From an uncultured Planctomycetaceae bacterium (lineage in GTDB: Bacteria > Planctomycetota > Planctomycetia > Pirellulales > PNKZ01): a DNA stretch of 64,000 bases. The stretch spans positions 19 to 64,018 of the forward strand of contig CAZZBK010000013.1 in the NCBI GenBank assembly GCA_964652155.1, written 5' to 3'. This document shows positions 1 to 55,334 of the stretch, piece by piece. Numbering within the stretch: position 1 is the stretch's first letter; each line of letters begins with the position of its first letter. The notes beneath the pieces were generated by a model that saw only the letters and a list, made by a program, of their open reading frames with translations, had not been told where the DNA came from and ran no database searches. Position numbers and translations under genes: made by a program.

Positions 1-3000
1 CCGCGACCGTGGGTCTTGCCGACATTACCGAGGACCGCGCGGGATCTGCAATCCAGTTCCGAGTGCTCGGCGACGGTCGCGAACTTTGGAAGTCGCATCA
101 GATCCAGAAACCGACGGACGAAGCTACGTTCTCGGTGTCGGTTGCGGGCGTACGCGAATTGCAGTTGGAAGTGGCAACGGTCGCCACGAACTCGAATAAA
201 TTTGCCCACGCTGTCTGGCTCGACCCGCGACTGACGCCGATTGCTGCACCGTCGACCACTCCCGGCGGCTCGTCGGGGGCTAACGTGCCGGGCATCGTCT
301 ATCTCGACGACCTGCCCGAGAAAGACTGGCAAGGATTCATCGAACTGGGAAAGCACGGTGACAAGTGGAAGCAAGACGGGTCGGTCATCAATTGGCAGGG
401 TGCCAAGCCTGCGCATGCGCTGACGACGTATCCGCTCAGCAACGGCTCGGCTACGGTCACGTATGAACTCGGCGGACGGTACTCGGCGTTTCAAGCCGTG
501 GTCGGCATCACGGTGACGCCGCGGACTCCGTTGACGTTCCGGGTTTCCGGCGACGGAAAAATTCTCTGGGAATCACCACCGCAAACCAAAAGGGTCGTAA
601 GCGGCATCGAGGTGAACGTCGACCTCCGCGGTGTTGAAACGCTAAAGCTGGAGGTGCTCTGTCCGGGTGACAACAATTCGGCCCACGCCGTTTGGATCAA
701 CCCGCGGCTGACGCCGACGGCGCAGCCCGAACCTGCCGGCGTCGTCTACCTCGACGATCTGACGGAAATCGAATGGAAAAATCTCGCCAAACAGCCGTTG
801 GGCAAGCACGGTAAGTATCTCTACTTATCCGAAACGACCGAAACGACGATCCTCTTCCGCGGCAAGCCGGTTGAGCACACGCTGTGGATGCATCCTACAA
901 ATCCACCTCGTGCTAATCTGGCGACGGATCCGACTGCGTTTGCCCGGTATAAGCTCGATGGTCAATATGCGACGTTCGCCGCCGAGGCCGGTATTCACGA
1001 GTCGGCGGATAAAGACCCGCAGTCGCCGGTGACGTTTCGCCTGTTGGGCGACGGCCGCGAGCTGTGGAAATCGCAACCGATGCAAAAGCGGGGCGAATCG
1101 GCCGAAGTCGCGGTCGACATTCGCGGGGTGAAGGATCTACGCCTCGAAACGGCTAGCGGCGAAAGAACCGGCGCCTGCCATGCCACCTGGTTCATGCCGC
1201 GGCTGACGCCGGTTGAGAAGACGGCGCTCGCCGCCCCACCACCGGCCGCCGTGTTCCCCTTCGATGCCGCGACGGCGTTGAAGCACCAAGAAGCGTGGGC
1301 CGCGCACCTCGGCGTGCCGGTCGAGTTCACCAACACCCTGGGCATGAAGTTTCGCCTCATTCCGCCGGGCGAGTTCCAGATGGGCCTCGGCCCGGAGTTC
1401 ACCGACGCGGAACTAACGCGGCTGACCGGCGTGACATTCGATGGGAATCTCAGGAATTTGCGCACGGCTCGGCCGGCGCACGGCGTGCGGATCACGCGGC
1501 CGTTCTACATGCAAGTGGACGAGATCACCTCCGGCCGTTATCGCGATGTCGTCGGGCAACTGCGAGCGGAGATGGAGCAGAATCCGAACAAGCTGCTGGG
1601 GCAATACGTGGCCTGGCCCGATGCGATCGCGTTTTGCAACCAACTGAGCGAACGCGAAGGGAAGCGGCCCGCCTACCGGATCGCAGGGGCGGAAATCACG
1701 CCGATCGACGACTCCGATGGTTACCGACTCCCCACCGAGGCCCAGTGGGAATACGCCTGCCGCGCGGGGACGAACACGCTCTGGTACTTCGGCAACGACG
1801 GCAGCGCCGATCGAGAAACGTTCGTCAAGCAATGCGCCGCCCCCAATCCGTTCGGGCTGACCGGCCTCTACGGCGGGTCGAACGAAATGTGCTGGGACGC
1901 CACGGACCTGAAGCCGTACCCGGCCGCGACGCCCAGCGGTCGCAACGATCCCCGGGAAGACGCGGGGGCGGAGCGCATCAAACGCGGCGGCTCGGGCAAC
2001 GACAGCGGTGGAGCGAGTCGCTTCGCGATCAACAGCTTTGCGCGCACCAAGTCGTTCGGCGGGCCGTACAGCCCGGCGGCGTTGCAATACTCGGGCTTCG
2101 GCCGCGTCGTGCTGCCGATCGCCGCGGCACCAGTGAGCGACCCACGAGCGGGAGGCGTGAGCCTCCCGATGAGCCCCTCGACGAGCGGCGCACCCAACGG
2201 TCCAAGTAAACCGGTCAATCCGAGTAATCAGGGGGCCAACGCCCAGCGCTCGTTGCCCAGTGACGTCGTCGACATGCGACCGATGATTGACGTCGTGCGC
2301 GACACCGTCGCCGGTGACTGGACCTTCTCCAAGGAGGGTCTGAACGTACCGTATCAAATCAACGGCGACACGGGGGGCAAAGGAGCTCCACGATTGCAAC
2401 TCCCCTATACGCCGCCCGATGAGTACGACCTGCTGCTCGAGTTCACACCCACCAGTCGCGGCAACGACCTGGGCTGCTTGCTGAGTGCCCAAGGACGCAG
2501 TTTCCAGTTTCGCATCGACCGCAAGTCCGCGGGTGTCAATACCTGGTACGCCGGCTTCGGCTGGATCGACGGCAAACGGGTCGAAGAATTGCCCGCGAGC
2601 ATCAAGCAAGACGAAAAGCCGTTTCTGACAAATGGTCAGCGCTATCAGTTGACGATCGAGGTGCGTCGCGATGGATTGCGGGCCATACTCGACAGCAAGC
2701 CGTTCGTGCAATGGACAGGAGATTGGCAGCGATTGACCGTGGGCGATTCGGCGGAACGGCTCCCCGATCCGAAACGACTCGGCCTGATTGCCTATGGCCG
2801 CGCTGCGACGTTTCACACCATCACCGTCCGCGAAGTGACCGGCCGCGGCACGATGCACGCCGCCGCGGTGAACAGTGTTCCGGCCGCGCCGCGGTGGCCG
2901 CTCGCGCCGTCGAAGCCGGAAGACATCAAGCGACTGCTCGATGCGAAGGTCGAATTGACGGTGCGTGCCCCGGCGTCGTACGGTGGCGCGTCTTTCGACT

Positions 3001-4319
3001 CGAAGCTCAAGCCGGGCGACGCCCTGCCCGCCGGCCCGGTGACGATCGTCGGCGTGTTGGTGATGAGAAGCGAACCCGTGTTGATGGACGATGCGCTAGT
3101 CGGCGTCGTCGCCGGACTGACCGATTTAGAAGACCTGAACTTCTATTACAACGAGACGTACCCCGTCACTCCCGCGGGATTGTCGAAGCTGGCCTCGCTC
3201 GTGAATTTGCGACGGCTCGATCTCCTTTACCTCCATGGAAATACTAAGGGGCTTTCCGATCTGTTGAAGTCGTGGCCGCATTTAGAATATCTCCGTCTTC
3301 CTGGCCGGAGCGCGACGGACGAATGGGCTGCGGCCGCAGCCGCCAGACCGTCGATCGTCGAGTTATCGGCGTATCGCTCGGGTCTCTCCGACGCAGGCTT
3401 GGCCCACTTGGAGAAGATGCCGCAGCTCAAACAACTGCAACTTCTTGACTGTGAGCAGCCCTCGCAAGCTGCGATCGACCGGTTCGCCGCCGCCGTGCCG
3501 GGCTGTCGCATCCAACTAAAACCCAAGGAATTCATCGAGCCGCGCACGCCGCTGGGTATTGCCGCACCGATGCCGGCCGCGGCTCCCGCGCCGCCCCGTT
3601 GGCCGCTGGCGCCGTCGAAGCCGGAAGACATCGTCTGGCTGCAAAGCCTGAAAGCGACGCTCACGCTCCGTGCGCCGAGTGCGTTCGGCGGCGACCCCAC
3701 GGACGTCCAAGTTCTACCCGGCGCCCCCTTGCCGACCGGCCCGGTGACGATCGTCGGCGTCAGCATGCATCGCGACGGCGGGCCGCAATGGACCGACGCC
3801 GAGATGGCGAGGCTGGCGACCCTGACCGATTTGGAGACGTTCTCCACCGACTTCGCCTTACCGGGGGCCGCAGTCACGAAAACCGGCATGGCCGAGTTCG
3901 CGAAGCTGACCGGGCTACGCATACTAGTTCTGGGTCGCTTGGGAACGGCCGACACCGACTATTCCTTTTTAGAACGCTTGCCGCGATTGGAAACGCTCCA
4001 ATTGTCCGTGATTCCGTTCCCCAACTGGGTTGATCAAGTCCGGCGGCTCTCGCTGCGCGAATTGAAAATTTACTCCCTGAGCCTCTCCGGCCTGAATGAG
4101 CTCAAAGGCTGCCCGACGCTGACGACTTTCACCCTCGCCGGCAGCAGCGGCGACTTGGAAGCACGCCGCACGGCAGCCTCCGAGCTAGCCAAAGTGATGC
4201 CCTGGGTCCGCATCAAGCTTGGAACCGGTGGCACCAGCGAGGTCGAAACCATCGAGCCGACCGCCCCGCTGCCGGGCGCCGTCCCCGCTCAGCCCGCATC
4301 CCCCGCTTCCGGCAAGTGA
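1..4319 (+). CDS. 5'-truncated giant secreted multidomain protein: 3 NPCBM-like modules, an FGE/SUMF1-fold domain, a LamG/DUF1080-like module and 2 x (beta module + leucine-rich repeats)
   Basis: The frame of ORF 9..4319 is open to the window edge. The first module lacks its N-terminal half compared with modules 2 and 3. A module ending AHAVW(L/I)(D/N)PRLTP or CHATWFMPRLTP occurs three times. SUMF1 signature GYRLPTEAQWEYACRAGT is present. PRWPLAPSKPEDI...GPVTIVGV occurs twice, each followed by LxxLxL-rich stretches. Confidence 0.8.
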   Translation, partial: ATVGLADITEDRAGSAIQFRVLGDGRELWKSHQIQKPTDEATFSVSVAGVRELQLEVATVATNSNKFAHAVWLDPRLTPIAAPSTTPGGSSGANVPGIVYLDDLPEKDWQGFIELGKHGDKWKQDGSVINWQGAKPAHALTTYPLSNGSATVTYELGGRYSAFQAVVGITVTPRTPLTFRVSGDGKILWESPPQTKRVVSGIEVNVDLRGVETLKLEVLCPGDNNSAHAVWINPRLTPTAQPEPAGVVYLDDLTEIEWKNLAKQPLGKHGKYLYLSETTETTILFRGKPVEHTLWMHPTNPPRANLATDPTAFARYKLDGQYATFAAEAGIHESADKDPQSPVTFRLLGDGRELWKSQPMQKRGESAEVAVDIRGVKDLRLETASGERTGACHATWFMPRLTPVEKTALAAPPPAAVFPFDAATALKHQEAWAAHLGVPVEFTNTLGMKFRLIPPGEFQMGLGPEFTDAELTRLTGVTFDGNLRNLRTARPAHGVRITRPFYMQVDEITSGRYRDVVGQLRAEMEQNPNKLLGQYVAWPDAIAFCNQLSEREGKRPAYRIAGAEITPIDDSDGYRLPTEAQWEYACRAGTNTLWYFGNDGSADRETFVKQCAAPNPFGLTGLYGGSNEMCWDATDLKPYPAATPSGRNDPREDAGAERIKRGGSGNDSGGASRFAINSFARTKSFGGPYSPAALQYSGFGRVVLPIAAAPVSDPRAGGVSLPMSPSTSGAPNGPSKPVNPSNQGANAQRSLPSDVVDMRPMIDVVRDTVAGDWTFSKEGLNVPYQINGDTGGKGAPRLQLPYTPPDEYDLLLEFTPTSRGNDLGCLLSAQGRSFQFRIDRKSAGVNTWYAGFGWIDGKRVEELPASIKQDEKPFLTNGQRYQLTIEVRRDGLRAILDSKPFVQWTGDWQRLTVGDSAERLPDPKRLGLIAYGRAATFHTITVREVTGRGTMHAAAVNSVPAAPRWPLAPSKPEDIKRLLDAKVELTVRAPASYGGASFDSKLKPGDALPAGPVTIVGVLVMRSEPVLMDDALVGVVAGLTDLEDLNFYYNETYPVTPAGLSKLASLVNLRRLDLLYLHGNTKGLSDLLKSWPHLEYLRLPGRSATDEWAAAAAARPSIVELSAYRSGLSDAGLAHLEKMPQLKQLQLLDCEQPSQAAIDRFAAAVPGCRIQLKPKEFIEPRTPLGIAAPMPAAAPAPPRWPLAPSKPEDIVWLQSLKATLTLRAPSAFGGDPTDVQVLPGAPLPTGPVTIVGVSMHRDGGPQWTDAEMARLATLTDLETFSTDFALPGAAVTKTGMAEFAKLTGLRILVLGRLGTADTDYSFLERLPRLETLQLSVIPFPNWVDQVRRLSLRELKIYSLSLSGLNELKGCPTLTTFTLAGSSGDLEARRTAASELAKVMPWVRIKLGTGGTSEVETIEPTAPLPGAVPAQPASPASGK

Positions 4320-15398: not shown

Positions 15399-15773
15399 GG
15401 CGGCTTTCCTTCGCGCGGCGGAACGTGGAGGTCGCAACTCACGGTAGTATAAGGGTCGACCGTCACCTCGCAAGCGGCCTCGGTGCCAGGATTTGTTCCC
15501 TCTCGGCTCAAAGCCCGAAAGGCTGGCAGACGATGCGGGTATTGGCAGCCAGGGTCGCGGGGGCGGACGCCCTAACTCAGCTTTCTAATTTTGGATGGAT
15601 AGACTACAAATCACTTCTGGATAAGGTGTTGCGGAAAGTCGATAACCTCCGGCCAGGATTACTTGCCGCGCGGTACCGAACTTGCAGCTATGATTGAAGC
15701 GCGGAGTTCGTCTGTCCGTTTTTGGCAGTTGCGTGCTGCGTAGGCTGTTCTCACAAGCGTCGAAACGAGTTGT

Positions 15774-16193
15774 GTGGAGCATGTTGTGGTTCTCGTGACC
15801 TCACCCGCCATTTTGATCACCGACGACGATTCGTCACTGCGCGCCACGCTGAGCAGCGTGTTTGAGCCGCGCGGGTTCCGCACCTTGCAAGCGAGCGATG
15901 GGCAAGAGGCGCTCGATATCCTGCACAACCAGGAAGTTCACATCGCGCTCTTCGACATGCACATGCCACGCCTGACGGGGCTCGAAACCCTGCGGCTTGC
16001 CAAGCAGTTCAAAGCCGATTTGCCCTGCATTCTGATGTCGGCCGAGGCCGACGAGCAGATGATCAAGGAGGCCCTCTCCTGGGACGCCTTCGCTGTGCTC
16101 CGCAAGCCGGTCACGCGCAGCCACGTCATGGACCGCGTGCGCGAAGCGCTCATGCGCTGCTACCAATGGTACGACGCCAGCAAGCTCGTGTAG
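15774..16193 (+). CDS. stand-alone response regulator (receiver domain only)
   Basis: ILITDDDSSLR...ALFDMHMPRLTGLE...ILMSA...LRKP carries the canonical DD/D/S/K receiver positions. Several in-frame GTG starts lie at 15774-15795. Confidence 0.85.
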   Translation: MEHVVVLVTSPAILITDDDSSLRATLSSVFEPRGFRTLQASDGQEALDILHNQEVHIALFDMHMPRLTGLETLRLAKQFKADLPCILMSAEADEQMIKEALSWDAFAVLRKPVTRSHVMDRVREALMRCYQWYDASKLV

Positions 16194-16216
16194 CGCGTTG
16201 CGACGTGTTAGAGACG

Positions 16217-16351
16217 AACGAGCGGGGGTCGTCAGGCCCCCGATAGCTTCACCCCGTCATCGACCGTGTCGCCGGCGTTCGCTCCCATTGCGATAGTAAA
16301 CGTTTGGGCAAGGCAAACTTATCGGGAGGCTCACGCCTCCCGCTCGTTGTT
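16217..16351. repeat. REPIN-like doublet, left copy
   Basis: Left REP is AACGAGCGGGGGTCGTCAGGCCCCCGATAGCTT (16217..16249). Right REP, inverted, is AACTTATCGGGAGGCTCACGCCTCCCGCTCGTT (16316..16348). Each has a 7-bp stem and a tetraloop. It overlaps the last 19 nt of the RAYT ORF. Confidence 0.85.
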
Positions 16352-16915
16352 GATGCGCTGTGATGGCAGGTCAGAGATGCGTTCAACGTCGGGCTTGATC
16401 CAGATCTCCATCGGGTGGGCTTGCCGACGAACGTATTCGATCGCCGCTTGCACGGCCAACCTGCCTGGTAAATGCCGCTTCGATCCCGACTCGGTCCACC
16501 AGGTTCCACTCTCGGGCCGAGAAAATCGCCCATTCAACGCTCGGCTGGCATAGCTCTTCATGTCCCCCAGCAAGGCACTCGATGTCCGGCTCGCTACGGC
16601 ACCGATCACCAGATGAACATGATTGGACATGATCGCTGCGGCCAGTAGATCGTCGGCTCGATAGGCGGCCGTTTCTTGAAATTGTGTCAAAGCCACGGAG
16701 GCCTGCTCTGAACTTAACCAAACCGGTGATCCGAGCAGCTTCTTGCATGCATGCTCACGCAGCGCGGGTAAGTCGGCATCGACCGGCATGCCCGGAATGT
16801 TGTGCAGTTCCAATTCACCGGACCCGGTCCGTACCGGGCTGACAAATCCACGTCGATCTCCCGGCAGCCACGTACCGTAGGTCGTCCACGTCAAAAGCCA
16901 GTAGCGGAGCATCAC
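16331..16915 (-). CDS. rayT: REP-associated tyrosine transposase (IS200-like Y1/HUH family)
   Basis: N-terminus YWLLTWTTYGTWLPGDRRGFV, HUH motif SNHVHLVIG and a C-terminal Tyr motif AIEYVRRQ. GTG at 16915 is followed directly by ATG at 16912. Confidence 0.75.
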   Translation of the reverse strand: MMLRYWLLTWTTYGTWLPGDRRGFVSPVRTGSGELELHNIPGMPVDADLPALREHACKKLLGSPVWLSSEQASVALTQFQETAAYRADDLLAAAIMSNHVHLVIGAVASRTSSALLGDMKSYASRALNGRFSRPESGTWWTESGSKRHLPGRLAVQAAIEYVRRQAHPMEIWIKPDVERISDLPSQRINNEREA

Positions 16916-16967
16916 GAGAGTTTGCCCTCAGCATGAAACGACCGATCAAGTATTAAAACACGGCAAG

Positions 16968-17097
16968 GAGCGGGGGTCGTCAGGCCCCCGATAGCTTCGC
17001 CCCGTCATCGACCGTGTCGCCGGCGTTCGCTCCCATTGCGATAGTAAACGTTTGGGTAAGGCAAACTTATCGGGAGGCTCACGCCTCCCGCTCGTTG
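16968..17097. repeat. REPIN-like doublet, right copy
   Basis: 128/130 identical to 16220..16349 and in the same orientation. Confidence 0.9.
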
Positions 17098-17141
17098 AAA
17101 GGATCCTCGTAGAGATGTCCTCGATCGAACCAGCGGCTAAC

Positions 17142-19181
17142 TCACTCGTTGCTGACCTTGTCCAACGCGCGGACCAACGGGCGATAGCGCTGGTGATCCA
17201 ACTCGGCGATCAACCCTTGGTCGCTCGTGTCGCGCGACGCCTCGCTCAGGGCATTGCCAGCGTTGTACAGAGCCTCGACCGCCTTTTCGAGTTGCTCGAT
17301 GTGCGTCTCGGCTTGCTTCGCATCACGAGCCTCGCCGGCCGCGGCCAGGGCCACGAGCGCGCCCAGGTAATGCAACGAGAACTCACCCCGCTTGGCGTGA
17401 TACCAGAACAACGGCCGGGCCTCGCCCGGAGCGTTGCCGTGTGCCCGCAGCACCTCGTTATATGATTTTGTGAACAACCCCAGCGCGTTCTTGAGCACGT
17501 CGGCCTGCTTGGCGGGGTGCTGATACACGAGGTCCGTCGTCAGCGGCTTGACGGCTGAGTAATGCTCGGAGAGCGCGTGATTGGCCTCTTCGAGCCGTTG
17601 CAGGGCGAGCAACATTCGCTCGGCCACGTCGCGTCGACCGGCAATGGGGGTGTAGAGTTGCAGCACGACGTCATCGACCGACAGCTTGCTGAACGCCGCG
17701 CGTCCCAGCGCATACAGGGGGACGGTGGCTTCGCCGATGAGCGCGGTCGGTTGCAGCACCATCCCGCGCCAGCCGTGGCGCTTGGCCAAGTCAATGTCGT
17801 GCAGCACGGCAGCTTGGTCGGCCAGGGGCAATGGACCGAGCCCCGAGAGGGCCGCGTGCAACTCGCCGACGATCGGCGCGGCATTCTTCTGCAACATGGC
17901 GAGCGTTTCATGGGGCGGTTCTTCGTGCAACACTTCGACATCGAGCGAGAACACGACCGAACGGGGCAACCCCTTCGCCAGGTCGGCCTCGCGCACGAAC
18001 GAACCGTCGACAAACAACGGTGTCGCGTGCTGCTTGAGGTCGTTGGGCAACAGCGTGTGCAGCCCTTCGTAGTCGAGATGATCGCCGAACCAGGCTGACG
18101 CCTCGGGGTACGACTGATGCAAAGCCTGCCATTGGGCATGGGTCGCCTCGCGGACCGGTGACGCATCGCCCACGTGGGGCGTGCCAGGCAACCAAGTCAA
18201 CACGGGACCAGCGGCGGCGGGGGGCTCGACGGTCGGCGCGCCCAATGTTTTACGCATCTGCTCGATGGCGTCGGGGAGCTTGCCACGCAACTCGCGAGGA
18301 AAGGCCGTCGGAGCGACACGCAGCGCGCCGCCGATACCCAACTGCGCGCAACGGCGCATGAGCCGATGGACCAGCGACTGCGCGGCGCTCAACTGCTCGG
18401 CCGGGGTCGAGCGGCCCGCGAACTCGGCGGCGGTGAACAGCTTGTTCTCGCCGAAGGCGCGTCGCCCTGGCGTGTCGGGAGTCACGTCGAACGTTTGGCC
18501 CAGTTCAAACAAGCGGCTGCCCTGCACGCGTTGACCTTGCACTGTGTACTCGACGAACGGCTGCTCGGTTCCCAACTCGAACACGATGAGGTTGATTTTA
18601 TTTTTGACCAACTGCCCGATCAGCGACTCGAGGTCGGCCGCGCTCCAGGCGAAGGTCGACGAGAGCGCCGAGCCAAACATTCGCCAGCCGCGCACGCTCA
18701 GTTCGGTGTCTAATACCAGATCGAGGCCGTCGAGCTTGAACGTCGCGCCGGCCGTGGGGAGCATGTCGCCGTGGGGTAGCGAGCGGATGCCGAAATGGTG
18801 CCCGAGTTCGTACACGGCCCAGAGCGTGGCCAGGTCGCTGCCGCCGCCAACGATCACGGTCGGCACCTTGCTGCCAGCGAGTGTGCGGACAACGTGCCCT
18901 TGCTCGCCGAGTTTGGGCCAGCGATCGCCAATGGCTTGAGCCAGCGCGGCGTTGGTCTCGGGCCGACCGAGCAAGACCACGTGCGCCGCGTCGGCAACGG
19001 GGGTGGCGCTCACGCGCACCTCGGCCTCGAACAGCTTGGTAAGTTGCGTCGATAATTCACTCGCCGCGTAGCTCAAGAGCGGCGAGGGGTTGTCTCCCGT
19101 CACCACCGTAACCTGCGGTCCGGCATAAACCCACGACGCCGCGCACAGACATGCGCAGGCCACAAACATCCGGCAGAACAT
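17142..19181 (-). CDS. secreted hypothetical protein (680 aa), possibly glycoside-hydrolase-like
   Basis: The internal ATG at 19181 gives signal peptide MFCRMFVACACLCAASWVYAG. The longer ORF start (19517) would overlap the upstream gene. N-terminal VVLLGRPETN...VIVGGGSDLATLWAVYEL resembles the N-domain of GH20/GH67/GH115-type enzymes; this is a weak impression. Confidence 0.6.
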   Translation of the reverse strand: MFCRMFVACACLCAASWVYAGPQVTVVTGDNPSPLLSYAASELSTQLTKLFEAEVRVSATPVADAAHVVLLGRPETNAALAQAIGDRWPKLGEQGHVVRTLAGSKVPTVIVGGGSDLATLWAVYELGHHFGIRSLPHGDMLPTAGATFKLDGLDLVLDTELSVRGWRMFGSALSSTFAWSAADLESLIGQLVKNKINLIVFELGTEQPFVEYTVQGQRVQGSRLFELGQTFDVTPDTPGRRAFGENKLFTAAEFAGRSTPAEQLSAAQSLVHRLMRRCAQLGIGGALRVAPTAFPRELRGKLPDAIEQMRKTLGAPTVEPPAAAGPVLTWLPGTPHVGDASPVREATHAQWQALHQSYPEASAWFGDHLDYEGLHTLLPNDLKQHATPLFVDGSFVREADLAKGLPRSVVFSLDVEVLHEEPPHETLAMLQKNAAPIVGELHAALSGLGPLPLADQAAVLHDIDLAKRHGWRGMVLQPTALIGEATVPLYALGRAAFSKLSVDDVVLQLYTPIAGRRDVAERMLLALQRLEEANHALSEHYSAVKPLTTDLVYQHPAKQADVLKNALGLFTKSYNEVLRAHGNAPGEARPLFWYHAKRGEFSLHYLGALVALAAAGEARDAKQAETHIEQLEKAVEALYNAGNALSEASRDTSDQGLIAELDHQRYRPLVRALDKVSNE

Positions 19182-49527: not shown

Positions 49528-52161
49528 ATGTCGTCCACCACGCATCTCGAGCCCGAATCGCTGCTGTCGCGTTTCCGGCTCGAGGGCTTTCGACCCGGTC
49601 AGCTCGATGTAATCGCGACCGTGCTCAGCGGCGAAGACTGTCTGTGCGTGATGCCCACCGGCGGGGGCAAAAGCCTGTGCTATCAATTGCCCGCGTTGGC
49701 TCTGGGGGGGACCACGCTCGTCGTCTCGCCGCTGATTGCCCTAATGAAAGATCAGGTCGACCAGCTCGAGTCGCTGGGCATTCGCGCCACGCTGATCAAC
49801 AGCACCCTCTCCCCCGCCGAGCAATACGCCCGGCTCGATGCCATGCGCGATGGGGCGTATGAGCTGGTCTATGTCGTCCCCGAACGGTTCCGCTCCAATC
49901 GGTTCCTCGAGGCCCTGAAGAGCGTCGATCTGAAACGGCTCGCCATCGACGAGGCGCATTGCATCAGCGAATGGGGACACGACTTCCGGCACGATTACGC
50001 CCGGCTCGGCCAATTCCGCCAAAAGATCGGCAACCCGCCGACGATCGCCCTCACCGCGACCGCCACAGCCGACGTCCGCGCCGACATCATCGCACAATTG
50101 CAGTTGAAAGAGCCGCGCGTCTACATCACGGGTTTCTCGCGTCCCAACCTGCATTACGCCGTCACGAACCCTGGCTCCGATCGACGCAAAGACGACGAAC
50201 TGGTCGAGTTCCTCGCCGCGACCCCCGGCTCGGGCATCGTTTACGCCTCGACCCGCAAACGCTGCGAGGAGGTGGGAGACATGATCAACGCCCGCGCCAA
50301 GCGGAAGGCCTGCGTGTATCACGCCGGCATGACGAACGAGGACCGGCACAAAGCCCAAGACGAGTTCATGCTGGGCAAGAGTGAAATCGTCGTCGCCACC
50401 ACCGCCTTCGGCATGGGCATCGACAAGCGCGACGTCCGCTTCGTCGTGCACTACAACTTGCCCGGCACGATCGAAGGCTACTATCAGGAAGCGGGCCGCG
50501 CCGGTCGCGATGGCCAACCGTCTCACTGCCTGATGCTGTTCAGCCAGGGGGATCGCCGCATCCAGGAGTTCTTCATCGAGAGCTCGTACCCGGCCCGCGA
50601 GGTGGTCGAGCGCGTCTGCGATTTTCTCCGCTCCCAGCCGGTCGATCCCATCGAGATGACCCAACAAGAGCTGAAAGAGGAACTGGGTCTGCAAATGAGC
50701 GCCGAGGGGGTCGGCACCTGCGAGCAACTGCTTGAGAAGGCCGGTGTCGTTGAACGACTCGAACCGCGCGAGAACATGGCGATCGTGCGGCTCAATAGTG
50801 ATCTACCCGCGCTCGTCGATCTGCTCCCCAAGGCCGCCAAGACCCAGCGCCGCGTGCTGCAAGCCTTGGAGCGGATCGTCGGCCCGCGCCGCTTCGAGAC
50901 CGTCTACTTCAACCATCGCGACCTGCTCGCCGAACTGGAACTGGAAGCCACGCAGTGGAACCGCGCCATGCGCGAGGTGCTCGCCCTCAAGGTGGTCGAC
51001 TACGTGCCCCCCTTCCGCGGCCGGGCCATTCATGTGCTCGACCGCGACACCCCCTTCGACCAACTCGACATCGATTGGCAAAAGCTCGATCAACGCAAAC
51101 AGGCCGAGTACGACAAGCTGCAACGGGTCATCGATTTTGCCCAGGGCAACCGCTGCCGCGAGCAATACATTCTCGAATACTTTGGCCAAAGCGGCGAGCT
51201 TGTGCCGTGTGGTCGTTGCGACAATTGCCACAAGCGCAGCGGCCGCAGTCGCGTGACCGCCACAGCGACCGTCACCGACACCGCTCCGCAACAACTCGAC
51301 GCCGCGGTCCGCATGGCGCTCAGTGGAGTTGCCCGCAGTCGCGCGCGGTTCGGCAAGGTGCTCGTCGCGCAGATGCTGTGCGGCTCGAAGTCGGCCAAGC
51401 TGGTGAAGTTCGGCCTGCAACGGCTCAGCACCTACGGACTGTTCGAGCATTTTAAGCAGGACGATGTGGTCGAGTTGCTCAACGCCCTGATCGCGATCGG
51501 CTACTTGGAACAGGTCGACATGCAATCGGATCGACCCAAGCTGCAACTGACCGACGCCGGGACGGACGTGATGACCGGCCGCGCGGCGATCGTGCCGTTG
51601 CGTCTCGACGCCGAGCTGATCCACCGCTTCCGCAAGTTGCGCATGCCCGAGCAGCCACACGACCCGCCGCCGAAACCGGCCCCCGCGCCCGTGGTTGCCC
51701 CGCGTGAGGTCACGCCCCCTGCACCCTCTCCCTTAGCCCCCGTCGATAGCGACGCTTCGTCGCATACGCCGGGGGTGATCGCGAGCGAGCCGACTCCACT
51801 CGCCTCGCCTCAATCCACCCCCACTCCAGTCTCCGATCTCCAGTCTCCAGTCGTCCAGCCGACGCACTACTGGACCTGGCGGCTGCTCTCCGCCGACTTC
51901 ACCGTCGAGCAGTGCATGGCCATCCGCGGCATGGAACGCGAGGTGATCCTCGATCACGCCCTGCGGGCGATCGACAACCAGTGGCCGGTCGAGGCGCGAT
52001 GGTTCCTCTCCGCGCGGCAGATCGAGCAGCTCGAATCGCTCATCGGCCCCGGCGAGCCGCAACGCATTCGGCCCTTGCTGGCGCAGTTGCCCAGCGATCT
52101 GCGTTACGAAGACGTTCAGCTCTTTCTCAAATGCCGCCGCTCGCAAGCCGCGGCGAACTGA
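49528..52161 (+). CDS. recQ: ATP-dependent DNA helicase RecQ with a Pro-rich linker and an extra C-terminal domain
   Basis: FRPGQLDVI, MPTGGGKSLCYQLPAL, DEAHCISEWGHDFR, the Zn-binding CRCDNC region and an HRDC-like segment. About 170 additional aa follow. 49480 is an alternative start. Confidence 0.9.
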   Translation: MSSTTHLEPESLLSRFRLEGFRPGQLDVIATVLSGEDCLCVMPTGGGKSLCYQLPALALGGTTLVVSPLIALMKDQVDQLESLGIRATLINSTLSPAEQYARLDAMRDGAYELVYVVPERFRSNRFLEALKSVDLKRLAIDEAHCISEWGHDFRHDYARLGQFRQKIGNPPTIALTATATADVRADIIAQLQLKEPRVYITGFSRPNLHYAVTNPGSDRRKDDELVEFLAATPGSGIVYASTRKRCEEVGDMINARAKRKACVYHAGMTNEDRHKAQDEFMLGKSEIVVATTAFGMGIDKRDVRFVVHYNLPGTIEGYYQEAGRAGRDGQPSHCLMLFSQGDRRIQEFFIESSYPAREVVERVCDFLRSQPVDPIEMTQQELKEELGLQMSAEGVGTCEQLLEKAGVVERLEPRENMAIVRLNSDLPALVDLLPKAAKTQRRVLQALERIVGPRRFETVYFNHRDLLAELELEATQWNRAMREVLALKVVDYVPPFRGRAIHVLDRDTPFDQLDIDWQKLDQRKQAEYDKLQRVIDFAQGNRCREQYILEYFGQSGELVPCGRCDNCHKRSGRSRVTATATVTDTAPQQLDAAVRMALSGVARSRARFGKVLVAQMLCGSKSAKLVKFGLQRLSTYGLFEHFKQDDVVELLNALIAIGYLEQVDMQSDRPKLQLTDAGTDVMTGRAAIVPLRLDAELIHRFRKLRMPEQPHDPPPKPAPAPVVAPREVTPPAPSPLAPVDSDASSHTPGVIASEPTPLASPQSTPTPVSDLQSPVVQPTHYWTWRLLSADFTVEQCMAIRGMEREVILDHALRAIDNQWPVEARWFLSARQIEQLESLIGPGEPQRIRPLLAQLPSDLRYEDVQLFLKCRRSQAAAN

Positions 52162-52291: not shown

Positions 52292-53584
52292 ATGGCCCAA
52301 CATTCACGCCGCTCGTTTTTGCAGCAGTCTGCCTTGGGAGGCACGCTGCTCGGCCTGGCTCCGAGCACCTATCGCTCGGTCTTTGCGGCCGAACCGCCCA
52401 GCGAGCGGGTCCGCGTCGGCCTGATCGGCGTCGGCAATCAGGGCGGGCCCAAGAACAACATGAAGTATTTTCTCAAAAACATTGTCGCCCTGTGCGATCT
52501 CGACAAGAACTACCTCGCTGAAGCCGCCGACTTTTTGTCCAAACAGGCGAACCTGACCGCGACGATGACCGACGATTATCGCCGACTGCTGGACGCCAGG
52601 GACATCGACGCCGTGGTTGTGACCGTGCCCGACCAGTGGCACGCGCGGATGACGATCGACGCTTGCCAAGCCGGCAAAGACGTGTACTGCGAGAAGCCCT
52701 TGACGCTTGTGATTGGCGAAGGGAAGCCGATGATCGACGCGGCTCGCAAACATGGCCGGGTCGTGCAGACCGGCACGATGCAACGCAGTGGCGCGGAGTT
52801 CAAGCTGGCCGTCGAGCTCGTGCAACAAGGGATCGTCGGTAAAGTCAGCGCCGTGAATGTCACGCTCCCTGGCCCCAATTGGATCGCCCGGGCGGGCATG
52901 CCGGTGCCTGACAGCGCTCCGCCCGAAGGCTTTGACTTCAACCGCTGGTTGGGCCCCGCTCCGCTGCGCTCCTACAACAAGAACCGGGTCCATTACCTGT
53001 TCCGTTTCTACTGGGACTACAGCGGCGGTCAGCAAACCAATTTTGGCGCCCACCATCTCGATATCGCTCAATGGGGCTTGGGCATGGACGCGAGCGGACC
53101 CATCAGCGTCGAGGGGTCGGCCGTCTACCATCCCGACGGCTGGTACGAAACGCCCGACACGACCGAGATCAAGTACACGTACGCCAGTGGCGTGGTGATG
53201 ACGTGCCGCCAGAAGCTCAACACGAAGAACCCCGACCAGGGGACCGAATTCATCGGCAACAAGGGGAGCCTGTTCGTCTATCGCGGCGGCATCGTCGCCA
53301 ACCCGCCGGAGTTACTCAAGGACATCGAGTTGCCGAAGATTGTCAGTTCACAAGCGAACACGGCGCACGTGAACAACTTCTTCGATTGCGTGAAGTCGCG
53401 TCAGACTCCCGCGGCCGACGTCAGCATTGGTCACCGCTCGGCGACCGTTTGTCATCTCGGCAACATCGCCGTGCGCACGCAAAAGAAAATCCACTGGGAC
53501 CCGACGAGCGAAACGATCGTCGGCGACACCGAGGCGGCGAAGTGGCTGACCAAGGAATACCGCAAGCCTTGGACGCTGACGTAA
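52292..53584 (+). CDS. Gfo/Idh/MocA family oxidoreductase, Tat signal
   Basis: MAQHSRRSFLQQSALGGTLLGLAP. Rossmann motif VGLIGVGNQG and EKPL motif CEKPLT. Confidence 0.88.
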   Translation: MAQHSRRSFLQQSALGGTLLGLAPSTYRSVFAAEPPSERVRVGLIGVGNQGGPKNNMKYFLKNIVALCDLDKNYLAEAADFLSKQANLTATMTDDYRRLLDARDIDAVVVTVPDQWHARMTIDACQAGKDVYCEKPLTLVIGEGKPMIDAARKHGRVVQTGTMQRSGAEFKLAVELVQQGIVGKVSAVNVTLPGPNWIARAGMPVPDSAPPEGFDFNRWLGPAPLRSYNKNRVHYLFRFYWDYSGGQQTNFGAHHLDIAQWGLGMDASGPISVEGSAVYHPDGWYETPDTTEIKYTYASGVVMTCRQKLNTKNPDQGTEFIGNKGSLFVYRGGIVANPPELLKDIELPKIVSSQANTAHVNNFFDCVKSRQTPAADVSIGHRSATVCHLGNIAVRTQKKIHWDPTSETIVGDTEAAKWLTKEYRKPWTLT

Positions 53585-53612: not shown

Positions 53613-53740
53613 ACAACGAGCGGGAGACGTCAGTCTCCCGATGACGTTGAGAATATGATCGCGCTGTTTGGTCAAAGTCAGGATCGTTTACTCGTTGACG
53701 AACCCAGCTTATCGGGAGACTGGCGTCTCCCGCTCGTTGT
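53613..53740. repeat. REPIN-like doublet, third (diverged) copy
   Basis: ACAACGAGCGGGAGACGTCAGTCTCCCGAT (53613..53642) pairs with the inverted ATCGGGAGACTGGCGTCTCCCGCTCGTTGT (53711..53740). Same REP consensus as at 16217..17097, with a different stem pair. Confidence 0.85.
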
Positions 53741-53780: not shown

Positions 53781-55334
53781 TTACAACGTCGGGCCGATCG
53801 CCCAGGGGGCGTACTCGTCTTCGCCGTAGCCGAGCTGCTCGCTCTTGGTTTTTTTGCCGCTGGCCACGTCGAGCACCATCTCAAAAATCTCGCGGCCGAC
53901 GTGCTCGACACTCGTCCCTTCCAAAATCACGCCGGCGTTGATGTCCATGTCGGACTCCATTCGCTGGTACATCGGCGTGTTCGTGGCGATCTTGATCGAG
54001 GGGCTCGGCTTACAACCAAAACAACTGCCGCGACCGGTCGTGAAGGCCACGACATTGCAGCCGCCGGCAACCAAGCCGGTCACGCTCGCGGGATCAAAGC
54101 CCGGCGTGTCCATCACGCACATCCCCTTGGCCGTGATCGGCTCGGCGTAGAGATACACGGCGTTCATGGCCGTCGAGCCGGCCTTGGCCGTGGCGCCGAG
54201 CGATTTCTCGTAAATGGTCGTCAGACCCCCTTCCTTATTGCCGGGCGAGGGATTGTTGTCGAGCTGCACACCAAAGAAGCCGGCATAACGCTCCCACCAG
54301 CGGATTCGCTCGACGAGTTTCTCCCCCACCGCGCGGCTGCGAGCCCGGCGCGTGAGCAGGTGCTCAGCCCCCAGAATCTCGGGGGTCTCGGCGAGCACGG
54401 TCGTGCCACCGGCGGCGACGAGCAGATCGCTGGCCACGCCCAAGGCCGGGTTGGCCGTGATGCCCGAGTTCCCATCGCTGCCGCCGCAATTCAAGCCAAG
54501 AATAATCTCGTTGGCCGGGATCGACTCGCGCCGCACGTCGTTGACCAGCGGCAACAAGCCGGAGAGTTCGCGCAAGCCCCACTCGATCGTCTTCTGCGTG
54601 CCGCCGAGGTCTTGCAACGTGGCAATCGGCACTTGCCGCTGAGCTTGGTTCCCCAGGCCGCTAATCTGCACGAGCCCTTCATGATCGACGAGATACGGAA
54701 TCGAGCCGGTCTCGCAACCCAGGCCGATGATGATATAGCCCCCGATGTTGGCATGTTTGGCAAAGCCGGCGATCGTGCGGGCGAGTTGCTGATGGTCCTC
54801 GCCGCCAAACTGCATGGCGCAGCCCCCCTTGTGCGTCAGCGGCAGAATGCCATCGACGTTGGGATACTTTTTCAGCAGCGTCTCGTCGAACCGCTGCGCG
54901 ATCAGCTTGCTCACATGGGCCGAGCAGTTCACGCTCGAGATGATCGCGATATAATTGCGCGTGGCCGCCTTGCCGCTAGCGCGACGGTAGCCCTGAAAGG
55001 TGCGCCCCACGATGGGTTCGGGATCGCGCGGCGTTTCGGTGGCGTACTCGTAATCTTGCCGCAGGGGTCCCGCTTCGAGGTTATGCGAGTGGATCCAGTC
55101 GCCCGGCTCGATGGCACTCTTGGCATAGCCGATGAGTTGACCGTAGCGCGTGACGCGCTCCCCCTTGGCATGCGGCCGCAGGGCGATCTTGTGCCCCAGC
55201 TTGACCGCACCGGTCAACTTGACCGTGTACGGTCCGGCGGTGATCGTCTCGCCCGCGGGCAGATTACACGTGGCAATACAGACGGTGTCGTCGTTATGGA
55301 GATGCACAACACGAACGGCGGAAGAAATCAACAT
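53781..55334 (-). CDS. UxaA-family dehydratase (altronate/galactarate dehydratase-like) with N-terminal SAF domain
   Basis: SAF segment VKLGHKIALRPHAKGERVTRYGQLIGYAKSAIEPGDWIHSHN. UxaA core GCETG...GGSDG...VAFTTGRGS. Start at ATG 55334. Confidence 0.88.
   Translation of the reverse strand: MLISSAVRVVHLHNDDTVCIATCNLPAGETITAGPYTVKLTGAVKLGHKIALRPHAKGERVTRYGQLIGYAKSAIEPGDWIHSHNLEAGPLRQDYEYATETPRDPEPIVGRTFQGYRRASGKAATRNYIAIISSVNCSAHVSKLIAQRFDETLLKKYPNVDGILPLTHKGGCAMQFGGEDHQQLARTIAGFAKHANIGGYIIIGLGCETGSIPYLVDHEGLVQISGLGNQAQRQVPIATLQDLGGTQKTIEWGLRELSGLLPLVNDVRRESIPANEIILGLNCGGSDGNSGITANPALGVASDLLVAAGGTTVLAETPEILGAEHLLTRRARSRAVGEKLVERIRWWERYAGFFGVQLDNNPSPGNKEGGLTTIYEKSLGATAKAGSTAMNAVYLYAEPITAKGMCVMDTPGFDPASVTGLVAGGCNVVAFTTGRGSCFGCKPSPSIKIATNTPMYQRMESDMDINAGVILEGTSVEHVGREIFEMVLDVASGKKTKSEQLGYGEDEYAPWAIGPTL

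What the first reader, a model, noticed from the sequence alone, without database searches (positions are those of the whole stretch)
16217..17097. RAYT-type HUH transposase bracketed by two near-identical 130-bp REPIN-like hairpin doublets
Seen directly: 16220..16349 and 16968..17097 are direct repeats with only 2 mismatches in 130 nt. Each repeat consists of two inverted roughly 33-nt REPs (consensus AACGAGCGGGAGNCGNNAGNCTCCCGATAAG), and each REP folds into a 7-bp stem with a tetraloop. The enclosed ORF has an HUH motif (SNHVHLV) and a C-terminal Tyr motif (EYVRRQ). Established: RAYTs flanked by their cognate REP/REPIN sequences are known mainly from Proteobacteria. Inference: this is a REPIN-RAYT pair in what looks like a planctomycetal genome. 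The near-identity of the flanks suggests recent duplication or gene conversion. The left repeat also supplies the last 6 codons and the stop of the transposase.
Basis: partly seen in the sequence, partly recalled or inferred. Interest (0 to 1): 0.7.

Follow-up and report, generated by a model that had tools for sequence, protein, structure and literature searches.

The report
Planctomycete REP-associated class 3 Y1 transposase
A small single-strand-DNA transposase gene sits between two nearly identical copies of a paired-hairpin repeat that is also scattered elsewhere in this planctomycete genome; it is a real example of a rare "class 3" REP-transposase system first outlined in 2018, not a new kind of element.

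Summary
Positions 16217-16349 and 16965-17097 are 133-nt direct repeats with 3 mismatches. Each is an inverted doublet of about 29-nt hairpins (REPs). Between them, on the minus strand at 16331-16912, lies a 193-aa ORF with intact HUH (H98, H100) and Tyr (Y160, Q164) motifs. Its last five codons and its stop lie in the downstream REP.

The protein passes Pfam Y1_Tnp, and its AlphaFold model matches only Y1 transposases. It is not a canonical RAYT: it fails the NCBIfam RAYT cut-off (28.8 against 80 bits), its REPs lack a GTAG foot, and it resembles IS200/IS605 TnpA more than E. coli TnpAREP. It fits "class 3 TnpAY1" of Quentin et al. 2018, a group found mainly in Planctomycetes whose genes are flanked by atypical hairpins.

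In 58 metagenomic homolog loci, 38 have the same hairpin type on both sides: an invariant 5' GAGC foot, a covarying 8-bp stem and a GTNA or TTCA loop. Twenty-three of 61 loci, a set that includes the window's own contig, also have direct repeats of at least 60 nt. The same REP core occurs on many contigs of other Planctomycetota genomes, almost always without the gene.

Verdict: real, and a new member of a known but little-studied kind. The mechanism is inferred by analogy. The REP copy number in this particular genome could not be measured.

The parts
16331..16912 (-). Class 3 Y1 (HUH) transposase gene, 193 aa from the ATG at 16912, with the stop TGA at 16333-16331. HUH = H98/H100, catalytic Tyr = Y160, Q164, WWT 138-140, N-terminal motif LLTWTTYGTWLPGDRRGFV.
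   Evidence: ORF list. The exact protein is on record on ENA contig ERZ3430528 NODE_234. Pfam Y1_Tnp scores 25.7 bits against a cut-off of 23. The key residues are invariant or nearly so in a 24-sequence alignment. AF2 model pLDDT is 85.6. The top 30 Foldseek PDB hits are all Y1 transposases.
16217..16349 (.). REP doublet downstream of the gene (3' side). REP arms are 16217-16245 (+ strand form, stem GGGGGTC/GGCCCCC, loop GTCA) and 16320-16348 (- strand form, stem GGGAGGC/GCCTCCC, loop GTGA), with a 74-nt spacer at 16246-16319. The arm at 16320-16348 encodes the last 5 codons and the stop of the transposase.
16965..17097 (.). REP doublet upstream of the gene (5' side), a direct copy of 16217-16349 (130 of 133 nt identical, spacer included). 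REP arms are 16965-16993 and 17068-17096.
16913..16964 (-). 52-nt leader between the inner REP of the upstream doublet and the ATG. Any promoter or 5' UTR for the gene would presumably lie here.
   Evidence: Sequence. The sigma-70 scan finds nothing, which says little for a planctomycete. In homolog loci the nearest upstream REP usually starts about 30-130 nt before the gene.
53615..53738 (.). Third REP doublet, with arms 53615-53643 (+) and 53710-53738 (-), the same foot and flanks, stem GGGAGAC/GTCTCCC, and an unrelated 66-nt spacer. It lies between two convergent genes: a GFO/IDH/MocA oxidoreductase (stop at 53584) and an altronate dehydratase (stop at 53781).
   Evidence: It folds as a long hairpin at -40.6 kcal/mol, z = -9.25.
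2143..2256 (.). Fourth REP doublet, decayed. The REP at 2143-2171 is intact; its inverted partner at about 2225-2256 is degenerate. It lies in frame inside the 1436-aa ORF 9..4319, in the linker after the FGE-sulfatase domain.

Best explanation
This is a REPtron-like locus. A single gene for a class 3 Y1 (HUH) single-strand-DNA transposase is embedded among its own cognate REP hairpins, here as one inverted REP doublet on each side.

Each REP has four parts: an invariant unpaired 5' foot (N)NCGAGC ending in GAGC, whose last C starts the stem; an 8-bp G+C-rich stem whose sequence is free to change as long as it pairs; a 4-nt loop (GTNA in this lineage); and a short 3' tail (GAT).

Inferred mechanism, by analogy with IS608/ISDra2 TnpA and E. 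coli TnpAREP. When DNA is transiently single-stranded, for example on the lagging-strand template, the protein binds the folded REP hairpin. It reads the foot and loop in a sequence-specific way and the stem as a shape. It coordinates a metal with H98/H100. It cuts next to the foot through Y160, forming a 5'-phosphotyrosine link, and it can rejoin ends. This activity would spread REPs and REP doublets around the chromosome, giving the copies at 53615, at 2143 and in other genomes.

The gene itself stays as a low-copy resident flanked by REPs. The two flanking doublets are duplicates of each other, spacer included, and are kept alike by gene conversion or by repeated re-creation.

Shown: the anatomy, the family assignment, the conserved gene-REP association, the covariation in the stem, and the dispersal of REPs without the gene. 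Inferred: ssDNA binding, the cleavage position, and the transposase being what mobilises the REPs.
For: Protein:
- It passes the Pfam Y1_Tnp gathering score, and all 24 aligned relatives match that model.
- H98, H100 and Q164 are invariant, and Y160 is present in 23 of 24 relatives.
- The AF2 model (pLDDT 85.6) has only Y1 transposases as its top 30 PDB matches: ISDra2, IS608, Sulfolobus IS200 and 4ER8.

Class 3 assignment:
- NHVH, W-T, extended N-terminal conservation, a length of about 180-190 aa and a planctomycetal host all match Table 1 and the text of PMC6006769.
- That paper's class 3 REP for P. limnophilus (CACGAGCCGGAAGCGTGAGCGACGGGT) has the same foot and loop as CACGAGCGGGAGGCGTGAGCCTCCCGATG at window 2143.
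- Homolog L199 (36% identity, E = 1e-29) is flanked by the exact Solibacter/Legionella class 3 REP type, GAGCCGCGACCGTCAGGGAGCGG.

Gene-REP association in homolog loci:
- Of 58 unique metagenomic homolog loci with both flanks available, 38 have GAGC-foot hairpins on both sides, 11 on one side and 9 on neither.
- Without any foot requirement, 111 of 133 perfect 7-bp/4-nt-loop hairpins within 450 nt of the genes carry GAGC as the 5' tetranucleotide. Hairpin density is 3.9 per kb near the genes and 0.56 per kb further away.
- GAGC sites with at least 7 of 8 pairs number 204 of 983 near the genes and 32 of 2552 further away.

Structure under selection:
- 56 distinct stems were found.
- On 150 sites chosen by foot, loop and position only, 86.8% of cells pair against 59.8% in shuffles. 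Cells changed on both sides number 290 against 90 (0 of 500 shuffles reach this). The covariation score is 0.641, against 0.176 for shuffles and 0.12-0.18 for slid controls.

Dispersal:
- The strict REP core hits many contigs of Planctomycetota genomes.
- Only 2 of the 118 stretches hold the gene.
- 41 of 44 two-REP clusters are in the '+-' arrangement with feet outward, as in all four window doublets.

Flanks and gene overlap:
- Direct-repeat flanks of at least 60 nt occur in 23 of 61 loci, counting the window's own contig L001.
- At least 14 of 24 relatives have C-terminal tails encoded by a REP, such as GEREA*, ERGASAP and SGGRQPPE.
Against: - No activity was tested. The cleavage site and the strand used are unknown.
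- The REP copy number in this organism is known only for one 64-kb contig (4 loci).
- The spacers of the three doublet types in the window are unrelated. There is therefore no direct evidence here that the whole doublet, rather than the single REP, is the unit that is copied.
- The Tyr motif is YVRRQ, with Q at +4. The published class 3 motif is YV[VI][AENY]EQ, with Q at +5. The difference aligns as a one-residue indel.
- The closest relative, P0002 (72% identity), sits in a different gene neighbourhood next to GroES/GroEL. This would also fit a gene that still moves.
Confidence: 0.75

Rival explanations
1. The locus is an autonomous IS200/IS605-like mobile element. The gene plus one REP doublet (a 748-nt unit) excises as a single-strand circle between the equivalent hairpins of the two direct repeats and re-inserts at REP doublets elsewhere. 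The REPs scattered through the genome would be its targets or its MITE-like derivatives.
For: - Sequence and fold are closer to IS200/IS605 TnpA than to TnpAREP. A profile search of the PDB gives 2f4f at 5e-6 and does not find 4ER8. Target-normalised TM-scores are about 0.65-0.67 for IS200-type structures and 0.47 for 4ER8.
- The Y...Q motif resembles class 1.
- Hairpins in the same orientation lie on both sides of the gene, like a left and right end. The two flanks are duplicates including the spacer, as expected after a circle integrates into a doublet.
- The 72%-identical relative is in a different neighbourhood.
Against: - There is one gene copy in 64 kb, and only 2 of 118 REP-anchored stretches hold the gene.
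- The contig assembles straight through the locus in two assemblies.
- The NCBIfam transpos_IS200 score is 22.9 against a cut-off of 55.
- No tnpB is present.
- The two ends are identical doublets, not distinct left and right ends.
- No second copy and no empty site could be found.
Confidence: 0.15
2. The hairpins are mainly host elements, such as transcription terminators or mRNA 3'-end stabilisers at the ends of convergent genes. Their association with the Y1 gene would be a by-product, with the protein no longer mobilising anything.
For: - The doublets at 16217 and 53615 lie between convergently transcribed genes.
- One REP at 16323-16342 scores as terminator-like.
- P0094 has Asn in place of the catalytic Tyr, so some family members may be inactive.
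Against: - The terminator-like count does not exceed shuffles (3 against 1.6 +/- 1.3), and the hairpins lack T-tails.
- An invariant unpaired GAGC foot, the feet-outward doublet bias (41 of 44), an in-frame copy inside a coding gene and tight linkage to the gene across 36-58% identical homologs are not expected of plain terminators.
- The catalytic residues are conserved in 23 of 24 relatives.
Confidence: 0.08
3. The repeat pair is an assembly artefact or a chance similarity.
For: The source is a metagenome-assembled contig. A Logan contig of the same region stops inside the REP.
Against: - Two independent assemblies agree across the locus (5 differences in 20.6 kb).
- The same architecture recurs in unrelated samples.
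- The chance expectation is 0.00 matches.
Confidence: 0.01

Closest known systems
Class 3 TnpAY1 and its REP-like hairpins (Quentin et al. 2018, BMC Genomics 19:475, PMC6006769)
   Same: - NHVH HUH motif, W-T motif, a Y..Q type Tyr motif, and extended N-terminal conservation.
- About 180-190 aa, in a planctomycetal host.
- The gene is flanked by non-GTAG hairpins whose 5' foot ends in ..GA followed by GC, with a GTNA tetraloop.
- The hairpins are multi-copy elsewhere in genomes.
- A homolog (L199) carries the exact published REP type.
   Different: - In this clade Q is 4, not 5, residues after the Tyr.
- The stems are perfectly paired 8-bp helices, not the 'weak/atypical' bulged structures listed in their Table S1.
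- Here the flanks are whole doublets in direct repeat.
Canonical RAYT/TnpAREP with REP, BIME or REPIN repeats (E. coli YafM, PDB 4ER8; Pseudomonas REPIN-RAYT systems; class 2 of Quentin et al., groups 1-5 of Bertels et al.)
   Same: - A single Y1 HUH gene flanked by the same short palindromes that are dispersed through the genome.
- Inverted doublets with feet outward, located at the 3' ends of convergent genes.
- Occasional in-frame intragenic copies.
   Different: - It fails the NCBIfam RAYT cut-off.
- The foot is GAGC, not GT[AG]G.
- It has WT where RAYTs have WQ or WE, and YV..Q where they have YI..NP.
- 4ER8 is only the 28th structural match.
- The spacers of the doublets are not conserved between loci.
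IS200/IS605 TnpA (IS608, ISDra2, Sulfolobus IS200)
   Same: These are the best sequence and structure matches. They share the HUH plus Y...Q catalytic layout and recognise hairpins with a guide tetranucleotide 5' of the foot.
   Different: - It scores below the NCBIfam IS200 cut-off.
- It has an extra conserved N-terminal segment of about 60 residues.
- Both flanks are identical doublets.
- The hairpins vastly outnumber the gene.
- There is no tnpB.

Membership tests
Y1 HUH transposase superfamily (Pfam PF01797) | Scores at or above the Pfam gathering threshold | tested here: met
   25.7 bits against a cut-off of 23. All 24 aligned relatives match.
Y1 HUH transposase superfamily (Pfam PF01797) | HUH metal-binding motif and a single catalytic Tyr followed by Gln on the C-terminal helix | tested here: met
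   H98 and H100 are invariant, Y160 is present in 23 of 24, and Q164 is invariant.
Y1 HUH transposase superfamily (Pfam PF01797) | Y1 transposase fold | tested here: met
   AF2 pLDDT is 85.6. Foldseek ranks 1-30 are all IS200/IS605 TnpA or TnpAREP, with E-values of 3e-5 to 8e-4.
Class 3 TnpAY1 (Quentin et al. 2018) | NHVH HUH motif and W[TA] motif | tested here: met
   SNHVHLV and GTWWTESG are present. The definition is from Table 1 of PMC6006769.
Class 3 TnpAY1 (Quentin et al. 2018) | Tyr motif YV[VI][AENY]EQ (Y----Q) | tested here: inconclusive
   The window protein has YVRRQ, with Q at +4. Relatives L194 (YVRAHQ) and L199 (YTLHRQ) have Q at +5. The difference aligns as a 1-residue indel.
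Class 3 TnpAY1 (Quentin et al. 2018) | Extended conserved N-terminal region (profile of about 155 aa) | tested here: met
   Invariant L7 T8 T10 Y12 G13 W15 L16 P17 G18 D19 R21 G22 F23 V24. The motif is shared with L199.
Class 3 TnpAY1 (Quentin et al. 2018) | Gene flanked by non-GTAG hairpins with a 5' foot 'CnGA', multi-copy in the genome | tested here: met
   The foot here is (A/C)ACGA+GC, the same as the paper's P. limnophilus entries ACGAGCC/CACGAGCC. GAGC is invariant across homolog loci. There are 4 loci in this window and many in related genomes.
Class 3 TnpAY1 (Quentin et al. 2018) | Groups with the paper's 24 reference proteins in clustering or phylogeny | not testable with these tools
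   The reference sequences (for example ADG69454.1) could not be fetched. The only bridge is indirect, through L199 and its published-type REPs.
Canonical RAYT / TnpAREP (class 2; NCBIfam NF047646) | Scores at or above the NCBIfam equivalog cut-off | tested here: not met
   28.8 bits against 80. No hit at or above either NCBIfam cut-off is shown for the window protein or the other 23 relatives; the best relative E-value is 1.3e-11.
Canonical RAYT / TnpAREP (class 2; NCBIfam NF047646) | Cognate REPs carry a 5' GT[AG]G foot | tested here: not met
   The foot is GAGC in 111 of 133 gene-proximal perfect hairpins. None of the 8 window REPs has GTAG.
Canonical RAYT / TnpAREP (class 2; NCBIfam NF047646) | Gene flanked by the REPs that are dispersed in the genome | tested here: met
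Canonical RAYT / TnpAREP (class 2; NCBIfam NF047646) | Single copy per genome, vertically inherited | not testable with these tools
   Only one contig of this MAG is held. There is one copy in 64 kb. The 72% relative is in a different neighbourhood.
IS200/IS605 insertion sequence (class 1) | Scores at or above the NCBIfam transpos_IS200 cut-off | tested here: not met
   22.9 bits against 55.
IS200/IS605 insertion sequence (class 1) | Distinct left and right ends; several near-identical full copies per genome | tested here: not met
   The two flanks are the same 133-nt doublet. There is one gene in the window, and 2 of 118 REP stretches hold a gene.
REPIN (REP doublet as the replicating unit, Bertels & Rainey) | Two REPs in inverted orientation, a strongly preferred arrangement | tested here: met
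   All 4 window doublets are '+-'. So are 41 of 44 two-REP clusters in related genomes, with spacers of 14-97 nt.
REPIN (REP doublet as the replicating unit, Bertels & Rainey) | The whole doublet, spacer included, is conserved among dispersed copies | tested here: not met
   The spacers of the 16217/16965, 53615 and 2143 doublets are unrelated. Only the two gene-flanking copies share a spacer. Too few copies are held for a firm conclusion.

The most novel reading that the evidence does not exclude
In this planctomycetal clade the transposase gene has not been domesticated. The 748-nt unit made of the gene plus one REP doublet would still be mobile. It would leave as a single-strand circle by cleavage at the equivalent hairpins of the two direct repeats and re-enter at any resident REP doublet. 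That would regenerate the 'doublet-gene-doublet' direct-repeat signature seen in 23 of 61 loci (counting the window's own contig) and would explain the differing neighbourhoods of close relatives. It would be a living intermediate between IS200-type insertion sequences and REP/RAYT systems, one that uses its own non-autonomous offspring as landing pads.
Probability: 0.15. Interest if true: 0.6.

Novelty: new member of a known kind. Interest (0 to 1): 0.35.

Why it matters
Class 3 Y1 transposases were defined from only 24 sequences, called rare, and left as 'requires experiments'. No biochemical data exist for them.

This locus and its relatives give a cleaner picture of the class:
- The REP is well defined: an invariant GAGC foot, a freely covarying 8-bp stem and a GTNA or TTCA loop.
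- The gene-REP architecture is conserved, and the gene's stop is often inside a REP.
- The family is common in planctomycetal metagenomes (1423 clusters at 90% identity at E <= 0.001; 1417 clusters at 50% identity at E <= 1e-10).

That makes a direct test feasible: protein plus about 30-nt oligonucleotides, to see how a lineage between IS200 and RAYTs recognises its hairpin. For genome annotation, it warns that short C-terminal tails and in-frame linker segments in Planctomycetota proteins can be REP insertions.

Tried and rejected
1. Exact look-up of the 194-aa GTG-start protein found nothing. The 193-aa ATG form was on record.
2. The genome-wide REP count for this organism could not be obtained. 
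3. Two empty-site comparisons failed. A homolog search with the linker region of ORF 9..4319 that holds the in-frame doublet gave no hit at E <= 1e-10. Orthologs of the GH67N-like neighbour were either identical or at most 45% identical.
4. The Logan contig that ends exactly inside the REP looked like evidence of genome-wide repetition. It is fully explained by the local duplicate at k = 31, so it was not used.
5. DNA for the closest relative, P0002, was not retrievable. Only its gene list was returned.
6. Rfam had no match up to E = 1 in 15500-17800. The terminator and promoter scans were not above shuffles.
7. The five differences between the window and ENA contig L001 do not cluster in the repeats, so they are no sign of ongoing conversion.
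8. Supplement text searches of PMC6006769 for species names returned nothing. The class 3 rows were found by reading parts 7-8 of Table S1.
Full report
**1. The observation**

The region is as described. The repeat finder reports 16217-16349 and 16965-17097 as a 133-nt direct repeat at 98% identity, 748 nt apart. Each copy contains a 29-nt inverted repeat with 74 nt between the arms. The three mismatches are at 16219, 16251 and 16309.

A degenerate REP pattern finds 7 sites in the 64-kb window against 0.00 expected from shuffles: 2143, 16217/16320, 16965/17068 and 53615/53710. A decayed eighth copy faces the one at 2143.

Folded as single-stranded DNA, each REP is an 8-bp stem with a tetraloop, at -8.3 to -10.8 kcal/mol. 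The 53615 doublet can also form one long hairpin at -40.6 kcal/mol, z = -9.25.

The enclosed minus-strand ORF (16331-16912 from the ATG, 193 aa) carries SNHVHLV and EYVRRQ. It ends AAC GAG CGG GAG GCG TGA, so its last five codons and its stop are REP sequence, and the stop comes from the GTGA loop.

The exact protein is on record on ENA metagenome contig ERZ3430528 NODE_234. There it lies between a response-regulator gene and a GH67N-like gene.

**2. The protein**

It passes the Pfam Y1_Tnp threshold (25.7 against 23 bits). It fails both NCBIfam equivalogs: REP_Tyr_transpos at 28.8 against 80, and transpos_IS200 at 22.9 against 55. All 23 aligned relatives also hit only these two NCBIfam families, and no hit at or above either cut-off is shown for them.

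A search of 5.8 billion proteins gives 1423 relatives. The named ones are from Planctomycetota (Pirellulales, Gemmataceae). Apart from the identical protein (P0001) and a 72% relative (P0002), the listed relatives are about 52-63% identical. The JGI label 'RayT' on many of them appears to be automatic annotation, not a family test.

In a 24-sequence alignment, H98, H100, Q164, WWT138-140 and a long N-terminal motif (LT.T.YG.WLPGD.RGFV) are invariant. Y160 is present in 23 of 24.

A profile of that alignment hits Sulfolobus IS200 (5e-6), ISDra2 and IS608 in the PDB. It does not hit E. coli TnpAREP.

The AlphaFold model (pLDDT 85.6) has Y1 transposases as all of its top 30 structural matches. 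IS200/IS605 proteins come first (target TM about 0.65-0.67), and 4ER8 is at rank 28 (0.47).

An exhaustive profile search counts 3121 50%-identity clusters at E <= 1e-3, 1417 at E <= 1e-10 and 196 at E <= 1e-30.

**3. Prior art**

Quentin et al. 2018 (PMC6006769) split Y1 transposases into three classes: class 1 (IS200), class 2 (RAYT/TnpAREP) and a small class 3 that was 'previously unknown'.

Class 3 has these features:
- An NHVH HUH motif, a W[TA] motif and the Tyr motif YV[VI][AENY]EQ.
- A length of about 178 aa, with extended N-terminal conservation.
[quoted passage not shown] - About 600 hairpin copies in Solibacter usitatus.

Their Table S1 lists CACGAGCCGGAAGCGTGAGCGACGGGT for Planctomyces limnophilus and (C)CGAGCCGCGACCGTNAGGGAGCGG for Legionella and Solibacter. 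The window REP CACGAGCGGGAGGCGTGAGCCTCCCGATG has the same foot and loop.

One metagenomic relative, L199, is 36% identical to the window protein over the full length (E = 1e-29). It is flanked by four copies of the exact Solibacter-type REP.

The one discrepancy is that this clade has Q four residues after the Tyr, not five. The alignment shows this as a single-residue indel. Relatives L194 and L199 have the +5 form.

I therefore file the gene under class 3, not under canonical RAYTs. I found no later paper on class 3, or on REPIN/RAYT systems in Planctomycetota, in the held library.

**4. The gene-REP association is general**

A metagenome scan returned 80 loci encoding relatives at 36-64% identity (best segment).

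Using 'GAGC + 7-bp stem (at most 1 mismatch) + 4-nt loop' as the definition, 58 unique loci had at least 150 nt on both sides. Of these, 38 have such hairpins within 450 nt on both sides, 11 on one side and 9 on neither.

Without imposing any foot, 111 of 133 perfect 7-bp/4-nt-loop hairpins near the genes carry GAGC immediately 5' of the stem. Hairpin density is 3.9 per kb near the genes and 0.56 per kb beyond 600 nt.

The pairing count at all GAGC sites is bimodal near the genes. There, 204 of 983 sites have at least 7 of 8 pairs, against 32 of 2552 far away. Fifty-six different stems occur. The main loops are GTCA, TTCA, GTGA, GTAA and GTTA.

I took 150 sites selected by foot, loop and position only, with no pairing requirement. 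On these, 86.8% of cells pair (59.8% in shuffles), 290 cells have changes on both sides (90 in shuffles, reached by 0 of 500), and the covariation score is 0.641 (0.176 shuffled; 0.12-0.18 when the partner is slid).

So the foot and loop are read as sequence and the stem as a shape. This is the pattern known for IS608 and TnpAREP hairpin recognition (established knowledge, not tested here).

**5. The flanking architecture**

Direct repeats of at least 60 nt bracket the gene in 23 of 61 loci, at 70-98% identity. The 61 include the window's own contig L001 and the genome loci L048 and L102. L048 has 169 nt at 86%, and L102 has 129 nt at 91%.

A second common layout is a single REP on each side, pointing outward.

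The spacers of the gene-flanking doublets match only their partner copy, not other doublets. The flanks are therefore local duplicates kept alike within each lineage. The window is the high-identity extreme of this, not a special recent event.

At least 14 of 24 relatives have annotated C-termini that are translated REP: GEREA*, ERGASAP, SGGRQPPE, QGADAPRSP.

**6. Dispersal**

The strict core GAGCGGGNGNCNNNNGNCNCCCGAT was scanned against one genome per species.

Most paired-stem hits are in Planctomycetaceae, Pirellulaceae and Gemmataceae genomes. The minimum counts are:
- 14 stretches each in JBBDYF01 and CAYLLN01
- 8 in JAHWKJ01
- 6 in JAKEHX01
- 6 in the complete Planctomicrobium SH661 chromosome

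Only two of the 118 stretches (L048, L102) encode the transposase.

Two-REP clusters are '+-' with feet outward in 41 of 44 cases, with spacers of 14-97 nt. All four window doublets have this arrangement.

In the window, the doublets sit in three kinds of place:
- Between convergent genes (53615: oxidoreductase and altronate dehydratase).
- At the transposase locus, between the response-regulator gene and the GH67N-like gene.
- In frame within a real 1436-aa multidomain gene, in the linker after its FGE-sulfatase domain.

**7. What could not be settled**

- The REP and gene copy numbers in this organism.
- Whether the doublet or the single REP is the unit that is copied. The spacers differ between loci.
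- Whether the gene itself still moves. The 72% relative is in another neighbourhood, and no ortholog of the neighbouring genes was close enough for an empty-site test.
- Any biochemistry.

**8. Verdict**

It is a REP-associated Y1 transposase locus of the class 3 type already outlined in 2018, and a member of a large planctomycetal clade of that class.

The added value here is a sharper definition of the class 3 REP, quantified evidence for the gene-REP association and for stem covariation, and the recurrent direct-repeat and stop-in-REP architecture.

Interest is moderate to low for novelty. The locus is useful as a clean substrate for the first biochemical test of class 3.

Noticed in passing
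window 2143-2256 (inside ORF 9..4319, + strand): A decayed REP doublet is translated in frame as a linker of about 38 residues (PRAGGVSLPMSPSTSGAPNGPSKPVNPSNQGANAQRSLP). It follows the FGE-sulfatase domain of a 1436-aa NPCBM/FGE-sulfatase/LRR protein, so this is an intragenic REP insertion that kept the reading frame.
   Followed up: partly
proteins P0011, P0062, P0094, P0053, P0111, P0009, P0018: The C-terminal tails of many relatives are translated REPs. P0011 reads through three tandem REPs (NQGADAPRSPDTT x3). Gene callers therefore extend these ORFs into the repeat array.
   Followed up: partly
protein P0094 (on a 4.78-Mb contig): This relative has Asn in place of the catalytic Tyr (AVENVRRQ) while the rest of the protein is conserved. 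It may be an inactivated copy or one put to another use.
   Followed up: no
L167 and L168, about 2550-3900: The homolog sits inside a long tandem array: at least 9 REPs upstream and 5 downstream, alternating two stem types with a period of about 93 nt. A 341-nt direct repeat spans the gene.
   Followed up: no
L037 5377-5886 and L080 3344-4541: L037 has two 99-nt REP doublets, 99% identical and 411 nt apart, with no transposase between them. L080 has a 623-nt tandem duplication with a REP doublet at each junction. REP doublets may therefore mediate or mark local duplications in general.
   Followed up: no
window 51730-51776, against L051 3593-3639: A 47-nt stretch is 96% identical to a different Planctomycetaceae MAG. 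It contains the small palindrome GCGACGCTTCGTCGC. It is not a tRNA and its nature is unknown.
   Followed up: no
proteins P0178 (1311 aa), P0199 (1477 aa), P0206 (814 aa), P0196 and P0201 (about 610 aa): In these cases the full class 3 Y1 domain is embedded in the middle of much longer predicted proteins. They may be fusions or read-through ORF calls.
   Followed up: no
L200 5470-5493 (Logan contig SRR7369907_49634): An independent assembly of the same organism stops exactly 27 nt into the REP at window position about 17070. This is expected when a k = 31 assembly graph meets the local 133-nt duplicate.
   Followed up: yes
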